From positions 1-64,000 of the IMG/VR virus record IMGVR_UViG_3300030328_002692: DNA of 64,000 nucleotides; one strand, written 5' to 3'. Positions 22,976 through 28,959 of this stretch are shown piece after piece. The notes below the pieces were generated by a model. It had not been told where the DNA came from. It did not search any database and worked only from the letters and a program-made list of their open reading frames with translations. Made by a program: the position numbers and the translations under genes. Each line of letters begins with the position of its first letter. Positions within the stretch are counted from its first letter, which is position 1. This DNA is from a virus.

Positions 22976-23004
22976 TTGACACAGCGTTCAAAATTTGATA
23001 TAAT
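22976..23004 (+). promoter_or_regulatory. Consensus sigma70 promoter
   Basis: TTGACA-17-TATAAT. Confidence 0.85.
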
Positions 23005-23037: not shown

Positions 23038-23250
23038 ATGAAAAAATGGTATCACATATTATGGGGAAGTAAAGAGGAGGACGAGCTTGTACAAAAGCAA
23101 GTAGAGAAGTCGCCTGACCCCGCAGATTTAACAATAGAAAATGCTTACAAAACTAGATGGATTTGGTATCATACCATCTTGGCAGGACTTATGTTCTTTG
23201 CCAATATAATTCTGTTTGGCATTTTCATCTTATTAGCAGTAAAATTATGA
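23038..23250 (+). CDS. Small C-terminally anchored membrane protein
   Basis: AAGGA SD; hydrophobic C-terminus; ATGA overlap with pol. Confidence 0.7.
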   Translation: MKKWYHILWGSKEEDELVQKQVEKSPDPADLTIENAYKTRWIWYHTILAGLMFFANIILFGIFILLAVKL

Positions 23251-25517
23251 AAGTAGCAATAATTGAATCAAAGATGTCCAGAACTGATTGGGCAGACCGC
23301 TTTGATGGTGCGTTTGAGTTTGACAGGTATGCCCTGTGTTCAGACGCTAGAAAGAAAAAGATTTTAAAAGCAGACGTAGATATAGAGATTAACCTTGATG
23401 ATTACACTTGGGTAGTACTTGTTGGCTCAGAAGCCTTGAAGTATTACACAAGTGTAAATTCTATCACAGAATATAGTGGTAGATGTGTAGATGACAAGTT
23501 TCTTCCTGTAATCAATCCTGCTATGCTTTCGTTTAAACCTGAGGCAAAACCTTTATGGGACGAGAGCAAAAAGAACATACAAGAATTTATTAGTGGAGAC
23601 TTGGTAGTAGCGCAAGTAACAGAAGAACAAGCTTTGGGTATAGATACTGAAGAAGAAGCAAGAGAGTTCTTGCAGGAAGCATTAGACCACCCAAACAAGT
23701 TTATAGCACTCGACTCGGAGACAACAGGACTCTATCCAAGAGATGGATATATGATTGGATTTAGTCTATCTTATAAGAAGGATATGGGAGCTTATATACT
23801 AACTGATGTTATCACGCCAGACATTGAAGAAATAATGCAAAAGATATTTGACACAAAGATAGTAGTGTTTCATAATGCTAAGTTTGACTTGGCTTTCTTT
23901 GAGTATCATTTCAACTTCAAGTTTCCACGCTTTGAAGATACTATGCTTCTTCACTATTGCTTGGAAGAACAGCCAGGTACACACGGGCTAAAACAACTTG
24001 CAATGAAGTACACAGCTTATGGTGATTATGAGAAACCAATGCACGATTGGATTGATGGATATAGAAAGTCACATGGAGTACTTAAAGCAGACTTTCAATG
24101 GGATAGTATTCCATTTAGTGTTATGAAAACATATGCTGCAATGGACGCAGTAGTAACTCTATTGGTATTTGAAAAATTATATCCAGCAGTTAAAAAGAAT
24201 CCTAAGCTATGGTCAGTATATGAAAATATACTTATACCTGGCTGTCGTTTTCTAACAGATTTGCAAGACAATGGAGTGCCTTTTGATAAAGACAGATTAG
24301 AAAAGGGTAGAGATTTAATGCAGGCAGATATTGATGCAGCAGTAAACGAACTATACGAATTTGACTCAGTAGAGAAATTCGAACAAACAATGCAAAAACA
24401 ATTTAATCCAAACAGTACAGTACAGCTAAGACAATTACTGTTTGATTTTGCAGGTTTAAAACCAACAGGCAAAAAGACTGGTACAGGCGCACATTCAACA
24501 GATGCGGAAGTACTAAAACAATTAGCAGAAGAACACGAAATACCAAAGCATATTCTTAGCATAAGACAAAAGTCAAAGATTAAGAATACATATTTGGATA
24601 AGATATTACCACAACTTGATAGAGATGAGAGGTTGCGTACAGGCTTTAATCTGCACGGCACAACATCAGGTCGTTTATCTTCTAGTGGTAAAATGAATAT
24701 GCAACAAATACCTAGAGATAATCCTATTGTAAAGGGCTGTATAAAAGCTAAAGAAGGTAATAAGATTGTTGCAATGGACTTAACAACTGCAGAAGTGTAT
24801 GTTGCTGCTGTACTTGCTGATGATAAAAATCTTATGAATATATTTAGAGAGGGTGGTAACTTCCACTCTAATATTGCAAAATTAGTATTCTCACTCCCAT
24901 GTGAAGCTGATGAAGTTGCAGAATTATATCCAACACAAAGACAGGCAGCTAAGGCTGTCACCTTCGGCATAATGTATGGTGCTGGGGCCGCTAAAATATC
25001 TCAGCAAGTTACAGCAGACTCAGGAAAATACTTTAGTAAACAAGATGCGCAAGAAGTAATTGATGATTACTTTAGACAGTTCCACAAACTAAAAGCATGG
25101 ATTGATAAGAGTAGTAAATTTATTATGGATAATGGATTTATTTATGGCGCTACAGGAAGAAAGAGAAGACTGCCGAATGTTAAGTCTGATAATCAAGGAA
25201 TACAAGGTCATGAAGTTAGGTCTGGATTGAATTTCTTAGTTCAATCAGTAGCTTCTGATATTAACTTACTTGGTGGAATAGATATGCAAGAATACATAAA
25301 AAGGACTGGAATGAAGTCCAAAATATTCGCTCTAGTACATGACTCAATTCTAGCAGAAGTGCCAGAAGATGAGATAGAACATTATTCAGAAAAATTACAA
25401 AGTTTTATTCAGCAAGATAGAGGATTCAGTATACCAGGTGTGCCAGTAGGGTGTGACTTTGATGTACATGATGATTATTCTCTAGGCAAGTTTGAGAAAA
25501 TGTATGAGGGGCTGTAG
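23247..25517 (+). CDS. polA: DNA polymerase family A with 3'-5' exonuclease
   Basis: DSETTG, HNAKFD, TSGRLSS, RQAAKAVTFGIMYG, VHDS; start MKVAII at 23247. Confidence 0.95.
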   Translation: MKVAIIESKMSRTDWADRFDGAFEFDRYALCSDARKKKILKADVDIEINLDDYTWVVLVGSEALKYYTSVNSITEYSGRCVDDKFLPVINPAMLSFKPEAKPLWDESKKNIQEFISGDLVVAQVTEEQALGIDTEEEAREFLQEALDHPNKFIALDSETTGLYPRDGYMIGFSLSYKKDMGAYILTDVITPDIEEIMQKIFDTKIVVFHNAKFDLAFFEYHFNFKFPRFEDTMLLHYCLEEQPGTHGLKQLAMKYTAYGDYEKPMHDWIDGYRKSHGVLKADFQWDSIPFSVMKTYAAMDAVVTLLVFEKLYPAVKKNPKLWSVYENILIPGCRFLTDLQDNGVPFDKDRLEKGRDLMQADIDAAVNELYEFDSVEKFEQTMQKQFNPNSTVQLRQLLFDFAGLKPTGKKTGTGAHSTDAEVLKQLAEEHEIPKHILSIRQKSKIKNTYLDKILPQLDRDERLRTGFNLHGTTSGRLSSSGKMNMQQIPRDNPIVKGCIKAKEGNKIVAMDLTTAEVYVAAVLADDKNLMNIFREGGNFHSNIAKLVFSLPCEADEVAELYPTQRQAAKAVTFGIMYGAGAAKISQQVTADSGKYFSKQDAQEVIDDYFRQFHKLKAWIDKSSKFIMDNGFIYGATGRKRRLPNVKSDNQGIQGHEVRSGLNFLVQSVASDINLLGGIDMQEYIKRTGMKSKIFALVHDSILAEVPEDEIEHYSEKLQSFIQQDRGFSIPGVPVGCDFDVHDDYSLGKFEKMYEGL

Positions 25518-25583
25518 CTCAGTTGGGAGAGCGACTGCCTTGCACGCAGTAGGTCGCAGGTTCGACTCCTGTCAGCTCCACCA
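25508..25583 (+). tRNA. tRNA-Ala(UGC) with encoded CCA
   Basis: 76-nt cloverleaf: GGGGCTG/CAGCTCC acceptor with G3:U70, anticodon TGC, GGTTCGACTCC T arm, ACCA end. Confidence 0.97.
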
Positions 25584-26062
25584 TGATTTACGATAAATTA
25601 AAATTTCCGATATTTACAATCCATACTGATGATGTGATAGAATCAGATGGATTGCTTTGGATTGAAAACAAAGTATTAGACGATACTAATATGAAAGGCG
25701 AGACTTTAGGAATTAGAAGATTGCAGTCCCCAATGAAAAGTATATATCCTTTAAAGTATATGATAAAAGATATATCTTCTTTGCTTAGACATAAAGGAGA
25801 ACATTATATTGACAGTACAGGATATGTATTTACAAAAGAAAAAACAATAACAACACAACTAAAATATCATAAGATATTAAGAACAGATAGAAAAGGAATT
25901 GCTAGTATACTATGGATAAAGGATTGTCCTTTTCCATTTACTTTAGAAAGACCTTTAAAAGATACAGAAACTTGGGCAGGTATATTATACAGGCAAGGAA
26001 TGCCTTGGATATTATATTCTACCTCAAATAAAAAAGAAAAAGACTCTTGGAGAAAGATATAG
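25583..26062 (+). CDS. Conserved T5-like protein downstream of pol
   Basis: FPIF...LDDTNMKGETLGIRRLQ; syntenic position. Confidence 0.8.
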   Translation: MIYDKLKFPIFTIHTDDVIESDGLLWIENKVLDDTNMKGETLGIRRLQSPMKSIYPLKYMIKDISSLLRHKGEHYIDSTGYVFTKEKTITTQLKYHKILRTDRKGIASILWIKDCPFPFTLERPLKDTETWAGILYRQGMPWILYSTSNKKEKDSWRKI

Positions 26063-26063
26063 A

Positions 26064-26573
26064 ATGATACATATAATAGATGATATATTTCCAAAACACC
26101 TATTGGAGCATTTTGGAACTACTATAAACAGAAGTATGGAACCTTTTGTTAGTGGTTATGCTTCAAAAGAAGGAGAAGGATATTTTGAATGGGAAGAACA
26201 ACACCCACATAAAGCTATGTGCAGAACTATTTTAGATAGAGCTTCTCACTATGAAAATATACCTAGTGATGTTGATGGTTATGAGTATTGGACTCATATA
26301 AACACAAGACCAAATGATACACACCAAGACAAAGACGAAGTAGCATATCTCAAACATGGTATAAGTAGATTTCCTTTATTCTCTACAGTATTTTATTTAG
26401 AGATTAAAGACCTGTATGGAGGAGAGCTTGTCTTTGAAGATGGAGTAGAGGTTATACCAAAAGCAAATAGACTAGTAGTATTTAAAAAAGGACTGGAACA
26501 TAGAGTTCGCAGTTTTAGTGGTCACAGAGTATCAATAGCAGTAAACCCTTGGAGTACAAAATTATATAAATGA
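26064..26573 (+). CDS. 2OG-Fe(II) oxygenase
   Basis: HQD, STVFYL, GGELVF, PKANRLVVF, H, R.SIAVN. Confidence 0.8.
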   Translation: MIHIIDDIFPKHLLEHFGTTINRSMEPFVSGYASKEGEGYFEWEEQHPHKAMCRTILDRASHYENIPSDVDGYEYWTHINTRPNDTHQDKDEVAYLKHGISRFPLFSTVFYLEIKDLYGGELVFEDGVEVIPKANRLVVFKKGLEHRVRSFSGHRVSIAVNPWSTKLYK

Positions 26574-27148
26574 AAAGTGTAGCAGACATACCATATTATT
26601 TTTGGGATAAAGCATTGCCAGATGAGGCTTGTGATGAAATAATAAATGCAGGATTAGCCCTTGATAATTTTAAACCAGCAGGAGTAAATTCTGATAATAC
26701 AATTGACTCTGAATTAAGACAGGGAAGTATAGGTTGGTTTCCAAAAGACCATACAGTAGATAAACTATGTCAAAGTTATGTAGGACTTGCTAATGTTGAG
26801 ACAAAATGGAATTTTATAATATCACAATGTGAAAAGGTACAGTTTTCTATATATGGATTACAGTCAAGATATGGGTGGCATAGAGATACTAATGTCACAT
26901 TACCAGAAGGAAGTCCTATAAGAAAACTATCAGTTTCGGTTCAATTAAGCCACCCAGAAGATTATGAAGGTGGTGATTTTCAAATAAAAAACTTTTTTGG
27001 AACTGAAATAACTGAAAATGCAAATGAATTAAGAAATAGAGGCACTATAATAGTATTTCCATCATTTTTGGAACACCAAGTAGTACCTGTAACAAAAGGC
27101 ACTAGGTATTCATTAGTGCAATGGTATAGCGGGCCTGATTGGAGATGA
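26570..27148 (+). CDS. 2OG-Fe(II) oxygenase, PKHD/prolyl-hydroxylase type
   Basis: WHRD, RKLSVSVQLS, YEGG, FPSFLEHQVVPVTKGTRYSLV. Confidence 0.9.
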   Translation: MKSVADIPYYFWDKALPDEACDEIINAGLALDNFKPAGVNSDNTIDSELRQGSIGWFPKDHTVDKLCQSYVGLANVETKWNFIISQCEKVQFSIYGLQSRYGWHRDTNVTLPEGSPIRKLSVSVQLSHPEDYEGGDFQIKNFFGTEITENANELRNRGTIIVFPSFLEHQVVPVTKGTRYSLVQWYSGPDWR

Positions 27149-27633
27149 GAAGTCCTTATGATTATTACCCAACACCAGAGTGGTGTTATGAAAACTTACC
27201 TATAGATTGGAGTCAATTTAAGACTGCAATGGAACCTTGTGAAGGAGATGGTAGAATAACAAAGTTTTTACAAAGTAAAGGAATGGAAGTAACTACCTGT
27301 GAAATACAACATGGTAAAGACTTTTTAGAGTATGGGCATGATTTTACAGAAGATCATGGCTTTGACTTAATTTTTACAAACCCACCCTTTAGTATAGCAG
27401 AAGAATTTATTGAGCATAGTATGATGCTTTCTACAACAGTAGTAATGTTATTAAGAATAAATTTTTTAGGGAGTCAAAAAAGATATGACTTTTGGAATCA
27501 GTTTCCGCCCGATGGATTGTTTATTCTTAGTAAAAGACCTTCATTTACAGGTAAGGGCACAGACGCAACAGACTATGCATGGTTTGTATGGAGTGATATA
27601 AAAGAGTTGCAAGGACTCCATTGGATAAAATGA
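27145..27633 (+). CDS. Small N6-adenine/N4-cytosine DNA methyltransferase
   Basis: DYYPTP, EPCEGDG (motif I), TNPPF (motif IV), YAWFVW. Confidence 0.85.
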   Translation: MRSPYDYYPTPEWCYENLPIDWSQFKTAMEPCEGDGRITKFLQSKGMEVTTCEIQHGKDFLEYGHDFTEDHGFDLIFTNPPFSIAEEFIEHSMMLSTTVVMLLRINFLGSQKRYDFWNQFPPDGLFILSKRPSFTGKGTDATDYAWFVWSDIKELQGLHWIK

Positions 27634-28930: not shown

Positions 28931-28959
28931 TTGACACGAGTTTCAAAATTTGTTATAAT
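28931..28959 (+). promoter_or_regulatory. Consensus sigma70 promoter
   Basis: TTGACA-17-TATAAT. Confidence 0.85.

What the first reader, a model, noticed from the sequence alone, without database searches (positions are those of the whole stretch)
25508..25585. tRNA-Ala overlapping both the DNA polymerase stop codon and the next start codon
Seen: the first 10 nt of the tRNA (GGGGCTGTAG) supply the end of pol (GAG GGG CTG TAG, stop ending 25517). The last A of its encoded CCA (25583) is the A of the next gene's ATG, and that gene has no separate SD region. Knowledge: RNase P cuts at tRNA +1 and 3' maturation trims to CCA. Inference: maturing the tRNA leaves a non-stop pol mRNA (a tmRNA/ribosome-rescue substrate) and destroys the downstream start codon. 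tRNA release and expression of the two genes would then be mutually exclusive on a transcript, which could act as a processing-based timer on replication. It is also the only tRNA seen in the window, whereas T5 carries a tRNA cluster.
Basis: partly seen in the sequence, partly recalled or inferred. Interest (0 to 1): 0.82.

Follow-up and report, generated by a model that had tools for sequence, protein, structure and literature searches.

The report
tRNA gene wedged between two genes
A working alanine tRNA gene was recently inserted, to the exact base, into the short overlap between a marine T5-like phage's DNA polymerase gene and the next gene, so it now shares bases with both; this looks like a by-product of the insertion, not a conserved timing device.

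Summary
tRNA-Ala(UGC) lies at 25508-25583. The polymerase ORF ends at TAG 25515-25517, which is tRNA nt 8-10. The next gene's ATG (25583-25585) uses A76 of the encoded CCA, and 52 relatives confirm that start.

The regulatory reading is not supported. None of 78 related contigs that reach the polymerase 3' end (68-91% polymerase identity) has a tRNA there. In 52 of them the polymerase stop and the next gene's start overlap by 11 nt (TATGAyaTATGA type). The window equals that junction plus 75-76 nt, exactly tRNA +1 to CC(A), flanked by a 3-4-nt duplication (ATGA/TGA). Only one other contig (L089) shares the insertion.

An identical 76/76 tRNA sits after the DnaB-like helicase gene in distant relatives. 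No donor flank came with it.

Family-wide, tRNA-Ala is sporadic (0-2 per genome) and occupies at least five junctions. Its 5' end usually overlaps the upstream stop: TA|G, or the tRNA's own T8-A9-G10. ORFs ending "-GL*" inside a tRNA-Ala recur in unrelated phages. The 3' overlap with a start codon is unique among 98 contexts.

Most likely this is a young, tolerated insertion in a polycistronic operon, where tRNA excision and translation compete on each transcript. Processing was not tested.

The parts
22976..23004 (+). Sigma-70-type promoter-like site (TTGACA, 17 nt, TATAAT, with TG) between primase and polymerase; the likely start of the transcript that carries polymerase, tRNA and downstream genes
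   Evidence: 12 of 12 consensus matches. No + strand promoter-like site was listed between 23876 and 25986. The only + strand terminator-like hairpins after the promoter are weak ones inside ORFs (23877-23893, 25994-26007). The next perfect promoter is at 28931-28959. This is a consensus match only, not shown to be active.
23157..25517 (+). Family-A DNA polymerase gene (786 aa, 3'-5' exonuclease plus polymerase domains). Its last 10 nt (G GGG CTG TAG) are tRNA nt 1-10
   Evidence: PF00476, 2e-78; PF01612, 1e-26; about 44% identity to Demerecviridae polymerases. The C-terminus is ...GKFEKMYEGL here and ...KYD[IL] in relatives.
25504..25507 (+). 5' copy of the duplicated ATGA (target-site-duplication-like), the last bases of ancestral sequence before the insert
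   Evidence: relatives read ...TATGAyaTATGA...; the window reads ...TATGA, then the tRNA, then ATGATTTACGA...
25508..25583 (+). tRNA-Ala(UGC) gene, 76 nt with encoded CCA, G3:U70 and A73; this is the inserted unit
   Evidence: It is identical 76/76 to the tRNA found after the helicase gene in L148, L190, L206 and L212. Family tRNAs show 100% pairing, and 11 of 21 pairs have compensatory changes.
25515..25517 (+). TAG stop of the polymerase gene, formed by tRNA positions T8-A9-G10
   Evidence: The same use of the tRNA's TAG by upstream ORFs is seen in L040 and in unrelated phage contigs.
25583..25586 (+). 3' copy of the duplicated ATGA. Its A is A76 of the tRNA and the first base of the downstream start codon. 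Its TGA is in the polymerase frame, 23 codons after the TAG
   Evidence: frame counted from the sequence.
25583..26062 (+). Conserved 159-aa gene of unknown function (phrog_4386). In relatives it overlaps the polymerase gene's end by 11 nt

Best explanation
This is a functional, phage-borne tRNA-Ala(UGC) gene that recently moved as an exact unit into the 11-nt overlap between the polymerase gene and the conserved downstream gene of a marine T5-like phage. The unit is tRNA +1 to C75/A76 with no donor flank, bordered by a 3-4-nt ATGA/TGA duplication.

The double overlap follows from where and how the tRNA landed.
- The polymerase gene lost its own TGA and now stops at the tRNA's near-universal T8-A9-G10. 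Its C-terminus changed from YD[IL] to YEGL.
- The retained ATG of the next gene abuts C75, so its A doubles as A76.

The tRNA has no promoter of its own. It is therefore inferred to be cut out of the polymerase operon transcript by host RNase P and 3' processing enzymes.

On any one RNA molecule, cutting destroys the polymerase stop codon and, if the 3' end is trimmed to CCA, the next gene's start codon. A ribosome finishing the polymerase ORF covers tRNA nt 1 to about 20 and prevents the cloverleaf from forming. The transcript pool is therefore split between molecules used as message and molecules used as tRNA precursor (inferred).

The arrangement is tolerated rather than designed. The tRNA itself probably serves the usual role of supplying the phage's commonest alanine codon, GCA.
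For: Shown:
- The tRNA is canonical. The family's tRNA-Ala genes are under structural selection: 100% of cells paired, 11 of 21 pairs with compensatory changes, and G3:U70, A73 and CCA invariant.
- The 80 closest IMG/VR relatives (68-91% polymerase identity; 78 reach the polymerase 3' end) have no tRNA at that end. Their junction reads TAT GAy aTA TGA, with the next gene's ATG 11 nt inside the polymerase gene; 52 show this form.
- BLAST alignments to L003, L004 and L005 break at window 25495 and resume at 25583.
- The window equals the ancestral junction plus the tRNA plus an ATGA duplication.
- The insertion is shared only with L089. That contig is 98% identical over 1.9 kb, carries a different module after the 159-aa gene, and is then 92.5% identical.
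- An identical 76/76 tRNA sits after the helicase gene in phages whose polymerase is only about 65% identical. Its flanks there (..TAAT before, GTATAAAA.. after) are absent from the window.
- Closely related helicase-site tRNAs differ at 3 of 76 nt, so full identity implies a recent transfer.
- tRNA-Ala is sporadic in the family. The closest empty-site contigs have none, and a complete 104-kb relative has none.
- The 5' overlap is a common, labile state. TA|G or the internal TAG is used at five or more junctions in the family. Ten of 98 phage tRNA-Ala contexts have an ORF ending at the tRNA's TAG, including a UvdE gene.
- GCA is the top alanine codon.
- There is a perfect promoter upstream of the polymerase gene and none before the tRNA.
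Against: - No RNA data exist.
- The exact insert boundaries are not explained by selection alone, so the mechanism of insertion is unknown. A multi-step route (a larger insert followed by deletions) cannot be excluded.
- The insertion has survived 2-7% sequence divergence in two genomes, which is also compatible with a benefit from the arrangement itself.
- How the 159-aa gene is translated is unresolved. It has no SD, its upstream flank is a folded tRNA, and it now lies 66 nt from the polymerase stop.
Confidence: 0.72

Rival explanations
1. One reading: the double overlap is an evolved device. RNase P and 3' processing of the tRNA deliberately turn polymerase mRNA into non-stop mRNA (rescued by tmRNA) and delete the next start codon. 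tRNA release would then time or limit replication-gene expression.
For: - The overlaps are real and the tRNA is very likely co-transcribed with the polymerase gene.
- Overlap of an ORF stop with the tRNA's 5' end recurs at several junctions in the family, for example TA|G at the helicase gene in 15 loci spanning 58-98% helicase identity.
- The arrangement persists in two diverged genomes.
Against: - It is absent from all 78 relatives with a polymerase 3' end, and a complete relative has no tRNA.
- The 3' overlap is unique among 98 contexts.
- At other sites the 3' side keeps a spacer, mostly with an SD-like motif.
- The 5' spacing flips between -2, -1, +1 and +10 among close relatives of another phage group, which looks like neutral drift.
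- The overlap is fully accounted for by insertion into a pre-existing ORF-ORF overlap.
Confidence: 0.08
2. Origin rival: the insert came from a mature tRNA molecule. An RNA-templated or reverse-transcribed copy of tRNA-Ala-CCA was captured at a staggered break in the ATGA junction. This would explain why the insert runs exactly from +1 to CCA with a short target duplication.
For: - The insert boundaries coincide with the mature tRNA ends on both sides, with at most 1 nt of microhomology to any sampled donor flank.
- There is a 3-4-nt duplication.
- A zero 3' spacer is seen nowhere else in 98 contexts. That fits a one-step event better than gradual spacer loss.
Against: - The phage has no reverse transcriptase.
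- The donor genes also encode CCA, so the CCA is not diagnostic.
- I know of no precedent in phages or bacteria.
- Copy-choice template switching at the base of the folded tRNA gene (1-nt A/A microhomologies), or insertion followed by deletions, gives the same product.
Confidence: 0.1
3. The tRNA is a passenger or mainly an RNA-processing signal. It would contribute little as an adaptor, and would act (or merely be tolerated) as an RNase P cleavage site or structured spacer that uncouples the 159-aa gene from polymerase translation.
For: - The insertion is young, so an intact sequence does not prove use.
- The family does well without any tRNA.
- The insertion breaks the ancestral 11-nt translational coupling.
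Against: - Family tRNA-Ala genes show strong compensatory evolution and invariant AlaRS identity elements, which indicates use as tRNAs.
- The anticodon matches the phage's most used alanine codon.
- The same tRNA is kept at another junction in other phages.
Confidence: 0.07

Closest known systems
Animal mitochondrial tRNA punctuation with overlapping genes (reviewed in PMC3790967; tRNA-Tyr/tRNA-Cys 1-nt overlap and repair in PMC4787750)
   Same: The tRNA is embedded in a polycistronic transcript with no spacer and shares nucleotides with its neighbours. Cutting out the tRNA defines the ends of the mRNAs. One product of each cut is incomplete. Overlaps are tolerated because general repair and processing enzymes exist.
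   Different: - This is a phage in a bacterium with one tRNA, not a genome-wide system.
- CCA is encoded here.
- The cut polymerase message would end ...GA, which A-addition cannot turn into a stop. At the family's helicase site the cut end would be UA, which A-addition could complete.
- Nothing is shown experimentally.
Phage tRNA genes co-transcribed with mRNAs (T4 tRNA cluster; T5/Demerecviridae tRNA clusters) and E. coli mixed tRNA-mRNA operons such as thrU-tyrU-glyT-thrT-tufB (own knowledge)
   Same: tRNA and protein-coding genes share one transcript, and the tRNA is released by host RNase P and 3' processing enzymes. The tRNA probably matches phage codon usage.
   Different: Those tRNAs lie in dedicated clusters or have spacers. 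Here a single tRNA shares 10 nt with the upstream ORF and 1 nt with the downstream start codon. T5-type tRNA clusters are absent from this record.
Mycobacteriophage Fionnbharth tRNA-Lys overlapping the 3' end of gene 37 (PMC10865867)
   Same: A lineage-restricted phage tRNA gene overlaps the 3' end of a protein gene and alters that protein's C-terminus. A close relative (Boilgate) lacks the tRNA.
   Different: There the tRNA is on the opposite strand, has its own promoter and has a demonstrated role in lysogeny. Here it is on the same strand, is inferred to be co-transcribed, and also overlaps the next start codon.
Non-stop mRNA rescue by tmRNA/SsrA (own knowledge)
   Same: RNase P cleavage at +1 would create a polymerase mRNA without a stop codon, which is the classical tmRNA substrate.
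   Different: No evidence that this occurs or matters here. Upstream cleavage products are normally degraded quickly.

Membership tests
Bacterial-type elongator tRNA-Ala | Cloverleaf that scores above the Rfam tRNA threshold, with anticodon UGC | tested here: met
   70.9 bits against 29; anticodon tgc at position 34.
Bacterial-type elongator tRNA-Ala | AlaRS identity elements G3:U70 and A73 | tested here: met
   Read. Invariant in 10 distinct family tRNAs.
Bacterial-type elongator tRNA-Ala | Structure maintained by compensatory substitutions among homologues | tested here: met
   100% of cells paired, 11 of 21 pairs changed on both sides, 0 of 500 shuffles as high.
Bacterial-type elongator tRNA-Ala | Expressed, processed and aminoacylated | not testable with these tools
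No host is known.
tRNA-punctuated polycistronic operon (mitochondrial type) | tRNA and flanking ORFs lie on one transcript with no promoter or terminator between them | tested here: inconclusive
   perfect promoter at 22976-23004, none listed just upstream of the tRNA, and only weak terminator-like hairpins inside ORFs. This is a consensus scan only.
tRNA-punctuated polycistronic operon (mitochondrial type) | An incomplete stop codon (U or UA) left by tRNA excision is completed by A-addition | tested here: not met
   A cut at +1 leaves ...UAU GA, and adding A gives GAA, not a stop. At the family's helicase site the cut end would be UA.
Conserved regulatory overlap ('processing timer') | The same double overlap is kept in related genomes | tested here: not met
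   none of 78 relatives; only L089; the 3' overlap is unique among 98 contexts.
Demerecviridae (T5-like) tRNA cluster | Many tRNA genes grouped in a dedicated region | tested here: not met
   one tRNA in 91 kb; relatives carry 0-1 per contig.
Integrase attP carrying a tRNA fragment | A partial (3'-half) tRNA next to a tyrosine integrase gene | tested here: not met
   The tRNA is full length. There is no PF00589 match in the record.
Retro-inserted tRNA copy | Insert limited to the mature RNA ends and flanked by a short target duplication | tested here: met
   the insert is tRNA 1-75/76 and ATGA/TGA is duplicated. This feature alone does not prove an RNA intermediate.
Retro-inserted tRNA copy | A reverse transcriptase is available in the element | tested here: not met
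   no PF00078 match in the record. The host is unknown.

The most novel reading that the evidence does not exclude
tRNA genes in this phage family may move as exact structural units, from +1 to CCA. The mechanism could be capture of a mature tRNA at a staggered break, or copy-choice switching at the base of the folded tRNA gene. Such units would land in ATGA-type gene junctions. The tRNA's universal U8-A9-G10 would serve as a ready-made stop codon, letting it slot into overlapping genes. The resulting zero-spacer layout would create a bacterial analogue of mitochondrial tRNA punctuation. Ribosome traffic on the upstream ORF would gate RNase P access, and cleavage after C75 could yield a leaderless mRNA for the downstream gene.
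Probability: 0.12. Interest if true: 0.75.

Novelty: new variant of a known kind. Interest (0 to 1): 0.42.

Why it matters
Same-strand sharing of bases between a tRNA gene and both neighbouring protein genes is usually treated as an annotation error in phage genomes. Here it is real, and the evidence dates it to a recent exact insertion.

The comparison also shows a more general rule that I did not find in my three literature searches. ORFs can end on the tRNA's own T8-A9-G10 and so finish in "-GL*". The stop codon TA|G can also share its G with tRNA position 1.

This helps annotators accept such overlaps. It also offers a natural test case for how translation, RNase P cleavage and ribosome rescue compete on one RNA. 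It does not support a new regulatory mechanism for replication timing.

Tried and rejected
- **Assembly artefact:** rejected. An independent contig, L089, has identical junctions.
- **Later start for the downstream gene:** rejected. The MIYD.. N-terminus is conserved in 52 relatives with coding-type variability.
- **TAG recoding:** rejected. In relatives the helicase gene ends at the same YDL position with TAG, TGA or TAA.
- **attP or integrase origin:** no integrase.
- **Reverse transcriptase in the phage:** none.
- **Host origin of the tRNA:** no bacterial genome holds the 39-nt core. The 32-nt T-arm/acceptor pattern hit one unrelated MAG contig.
- **Simple homologous exchange with the helicase site:** the helicase 3' end (..GTATATGATTTATAAT) resembles the polymerase 3' end. 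However, a crossover there would carry donor bases (TTTATAAT before the tRNA, GTATAAAA after it), and the window lacks them.
- **Second copy or remnant of the tRNA elsewhere in the genome:** none.
- **More instances:** the metagenome scan found only the same contigs.
- **Megablast against cultured phages:** no match.
- **MFE folding of the 171-nt context:** uninformative. It did not recover the cloverleaf (z = 1.0).
- **MAFFT alignment of the junction:** it misplaced the gap. The manual register and the BLAST breakpoints were used instead.
Full report
**1. What is there**

The window is the first 64 kb of a 91,133-bp IMG/VR virus record judged 93% complete. Its family-A DNA polymerase is about 44% identical to those of T5-like Demerecviridae. 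No cultured phage matches at the DNA level.

ARAGORN finds one tRNA, tRNA-Ala(UGC), at 25508-25583 on the + strand. It is the only tRNA in the whole record. Rfam scores it 70.9 bits against a threshold of 29. The sequence shows a standard acceptor stem with G3:U70, discriminator A73 and an encoded CCA.

The polymerase ORF (23157-25517; Pfam DNA_pol_A 2e-78 and a 3'-5' exonuclease domain) ends TAT GAG GGG CTG TAG. tRNA nt 1 is the third base of the Glu codon, and the stop is tRNA T8-A9-G10.

The next ORF (25583-26062, 159 aa, phrog_4386, unknown function) starts with an ATG whose A is A76.

**2. Is the downstream start real?**

Yes. Fifty-two relatives encode the same N-terminus (MIYD[KRA]..FP...HTD...DG.LW). 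Variability by codon position runs 3 > 1 > 2 over the first 50 codons. No other canonical start lies before the conserved residues.

**3. Comparative evidence: the tRNA is a recent insertion**

A search of IMG/VR with the polymerase returned 80 loci at 68-91% identity. Seventy-eight of them reach the polymerase 3' end. None has a tRNA there, and only three carry a tRNA-Ala, 0.8-1.5 kb downstream.

In these relatives the polymerase gene ends ...TAT GAT (A/T)TA TGA. The downstream gene starts at the ATG inside that string, an 11-nt overlap of the kind associated with translational coupling.

The window reads ...TATGA, then tRNA nt 1-75, then ATGATTTACGAT.... This equals the ancestral junction plus the tRNA plus a second copy of ATGA. 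It can equally be read as a 76-nt insert with TGA duplicated.

BLAST alignments to the closest empty-site relatives stop at window 25495 and resume at 25583.

After the insertion, the base that had been the T of the old polymerase TGA became C (TAT to TAC). This change is synonymous for the downstream gene and is possible only once the polymerase no longer uses that stop.

Only one other contig, L089, has the same tRNA and both junctions (the metagenome scan added nothing new). L089 is 98% identical over 1.9 kb, carries a different gene module after the 159-aa gene, and is then 92.5% identical. The insertion is therefore real, has been inherited or exchanged between two distinct genomes, and is young.

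**4. Where the tRNA came from**

An identical 76/76 tRNA occurs in L148, L190, L206 and L212. The polymerase and helicase of these phages are only about 65% and 51% identical to the window's. There it sits right after the DnaB-like helicase gene, arranged TAA, T, tRNA, GTATAAAA, ATG.

Close relatives of those phages carry a version that differs at 3 nt, including a compensatory C5:G68 to G5:C68 change. The tRNA is therefore not frozen, and full identity points to a recent transfer.

None of the donor's flanking bases is present in the window, and microhomology is at most 1 nt on each side.

The record has no reverse transcriptase and no integrase, and no remnant of a second copy. No bacterial genome in the GTDB representative set holds the tRNA core.

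The mechanism is unknown. Three candidates fit:
- copy-choice switching at the base of the folded tRNA gene, using single A/A matches; this reproduces the exact product;
- capture of a mature tRNA copy at a staggered break;
- a larger insertion trimmed by later deletions.

The zero 3' spacer is unique among 98 contexts. That favours a one-step event, but I cannot decide between the candidates.

**5. Family-wide pattern**

tRNA-Ala is a sporadic accessory gene in this family.
- The closest empty-site contigs have none.
- A 100%-complete 104-kb relative has none.
- Others have one, sometimes with a tRNA-Asp or tRNA-Gly beside it.

The tRNA occupies at least five junctions.

At the helicase 3' end, 16 of 75 loci have it. 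In 15 of these the helicase stop is TAG and its G is tRNA nt 1. Near relatives without the tRNA have an ATGA overlap between the helicase gene and the next gene. One relative (L215) keeps TAG plus a short spacer, like a deletion scar.

The same TA|G sharing occurs at two other sites (L043/L044 and L211). In L040 a different ORF runs 10 nt into the tRNA and ends ...LEGL*, exactly as the polymerase does here.

The ten distinct family tRNAs pair in 100% of cells, and 11 of 21 pairs show compensatory change. They are therefore used as tRNAs.

On the 3' side, every other site keeps a 5-15-nt spacer, in most cases with an AGGAG-like motif.

**6. Beyond the family**

I examined 98 distinct IMG/VR contexts of tRNA-Ala genes that share the same 26-nt 5' part.
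- Ten have an open frame of at least 60 codons that ends at the tRNA's TAG. One is a genuine UvdE endonuclease gene (Pfam 1.8e-55), and several others exceed 190 aa. All end in -GL*.
- Twelve more have the upstream stop within 0-2 nt of the tRNA or sharing its first base.
- In one unrelated phage group, close relatives show spacings of -2, -1, +1 and +10.

The 5' overlap is therefore a common and labile outcome of compaction. The tRNA's built-in TAG acts as a back-up stop whenever tRNA nt 1 falls on the third base of an upstream codon, so that T8-A9-G10 is in frame. The overlap is not a rare designed feature.

**7. How it most likely works**

A perfect sigma-70-type promoter lies at 22976-23004 and the next one at 28931-28959. 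No promoter-like site is listed just upstream of the tRNA, and only weak terminator-like hairpins lie inside ORFs. The tRNA is therefore probably made from the polymerase operon transcript.

The steps below are inferred from established knowledge of RNase P, tRNA 3' maturation, translational coupling and tmRNA.
- Cleavage at +1 leaves a polymerase message without a stop codon.
- Trimming to CCA removes the A of the next AUG. A cut after C75 would instead give tRNA-CC, which the CCA-adding enzyme can repair, plus a leaderless AUG message.
- A ribosome terminating at the TAG covers the 5' acceptor strand and the D arm. Translated transcripts therefore cannot fold the tRNA, and their 3' acceptor strand and AUG are exposed.

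The result is a division of the transcript pool, not a clock.

Lack of an SD is not special here. The polymerase and primase genes lack one, and only 45 of 113 ORFs have a loose SD-like motif. GCA is the phage's commonest alanine codon, which fits the usual codon-supply role.

TAG is a true stop in this family. By a one-in-three chance, the TGA of the second ATGA lies in the polymerase frame 23 codons after the TAG.

**8. Comparison with known systems**

The closest analogue in function is mitochondrial tRNA punctuation with overlapping genes and repair of the shortened product (PMC3790967, PMC4787750). Other parallels are:
- phage and bacterial mixed tRNA-mRNA operons (own knowledge);
- the Fionnbharth tRNA-Lys, which overlaps the 3' end of a protein gene on the opposite strand and is missing from a close relative (PMC10865867).

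Three literature searches found no description of a same-strand tRNA that shares bases with both flanking ORFs in a phage. That is weak evidence of absence.

Earlier notes of this scan record tRNAs placed 3 nt from ORFs in bacteria. These are unchecked and only show that tight packing is seen elsewhere.

**9. Verdict**

- Observation: confirmed.
- Interpretation as a replication timer: not supported.
- Best reading: a young, exact insertion whose overlaps are by-products (confidence about 0.7).
- Novelty: a new variant of a known kind.
- Interest: moderate. The value lies in the clean before-and-after comparison, the -GL* and TA|G rule, and the open question of how a tRNA gene moved as an exact unit.

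Noticed in passing
L213, L214, L216, L218, L220, L221, L223, L224, L226, L234-L238 and L267 (helicase stop at locus position 2854-2856 in most): In 15 related contigs the DnaB-like helicase gene ends in a TAG whose G is nt 1 of a tRNA-Ala. RNase P cleavage would leave ...UA, which A-addition could complete to UAA as in mitochondria. Near relatives without the tRNA (L217, L219) have an ATGA overlap instead.
   Followed up: partly
L170:83-1030 (-), L110:8412-9329 (-), L175:1760-2470 (-), L188:5229-5804 (+), L040:6064-6750 (+): ORFs in other phage contigs, including a clear UvdE UV-endonuclease gene, run 10 nt into a tRNA-Ala gene and stop at its T8-A9-G10. All of them end in -GL*. This suggests a general annotation rule.
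   Followed up: partly
L215:2840-2880: A close relative of tRNA-bearing phages lacks the tRNA but keeps the TAG stop and a short GAAAGAA spacer before the next ATG. This looks like a scar from deletion of the tRNA.
   Followed up: no
window 22976-23004 and 28931-28959: Two perfect extended sigma-70 promoters (TTGACA, 17 nt, TG-TATAAT) bracket the polymerase-to-helicase operon. This suggests a proteobacterial-type host RNA polymerase.
   Followed up: no
window 25584-25586: The TGA of the duplicated ATGA lies in the polymerase frame, 23 codons after the TAG. Read-through of the TAG would end exactly on the next gene's ATGA. The chance expectation is one in three.
   Followed up: partly
window 26061-27626 versus L089:1952-3076: The only other genome with the insertion has a different gene module right after the 159-aa gene. 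The window's stretch here is about 1.6 kb and covers two 2OG-Fe(II)-oxygenase-like ORFs and a methyltransferase-like ORF. This is mosaic exchange next to the tRNA site.
   Followed up: no
L040:6744-6896, L221:1827-1979, L267:2856-3015: Some relatives pair the tRNA-Ala with a second tRNA (Asp or Gly) only 2-9 nt away.
   Followed up: no
G011 (contig of L260, 104,148 bp, 100% complete): A complete relative of this phage family has no tRNA gene at all, so the tRNA is dispensable for the family.
   Followed up: partly
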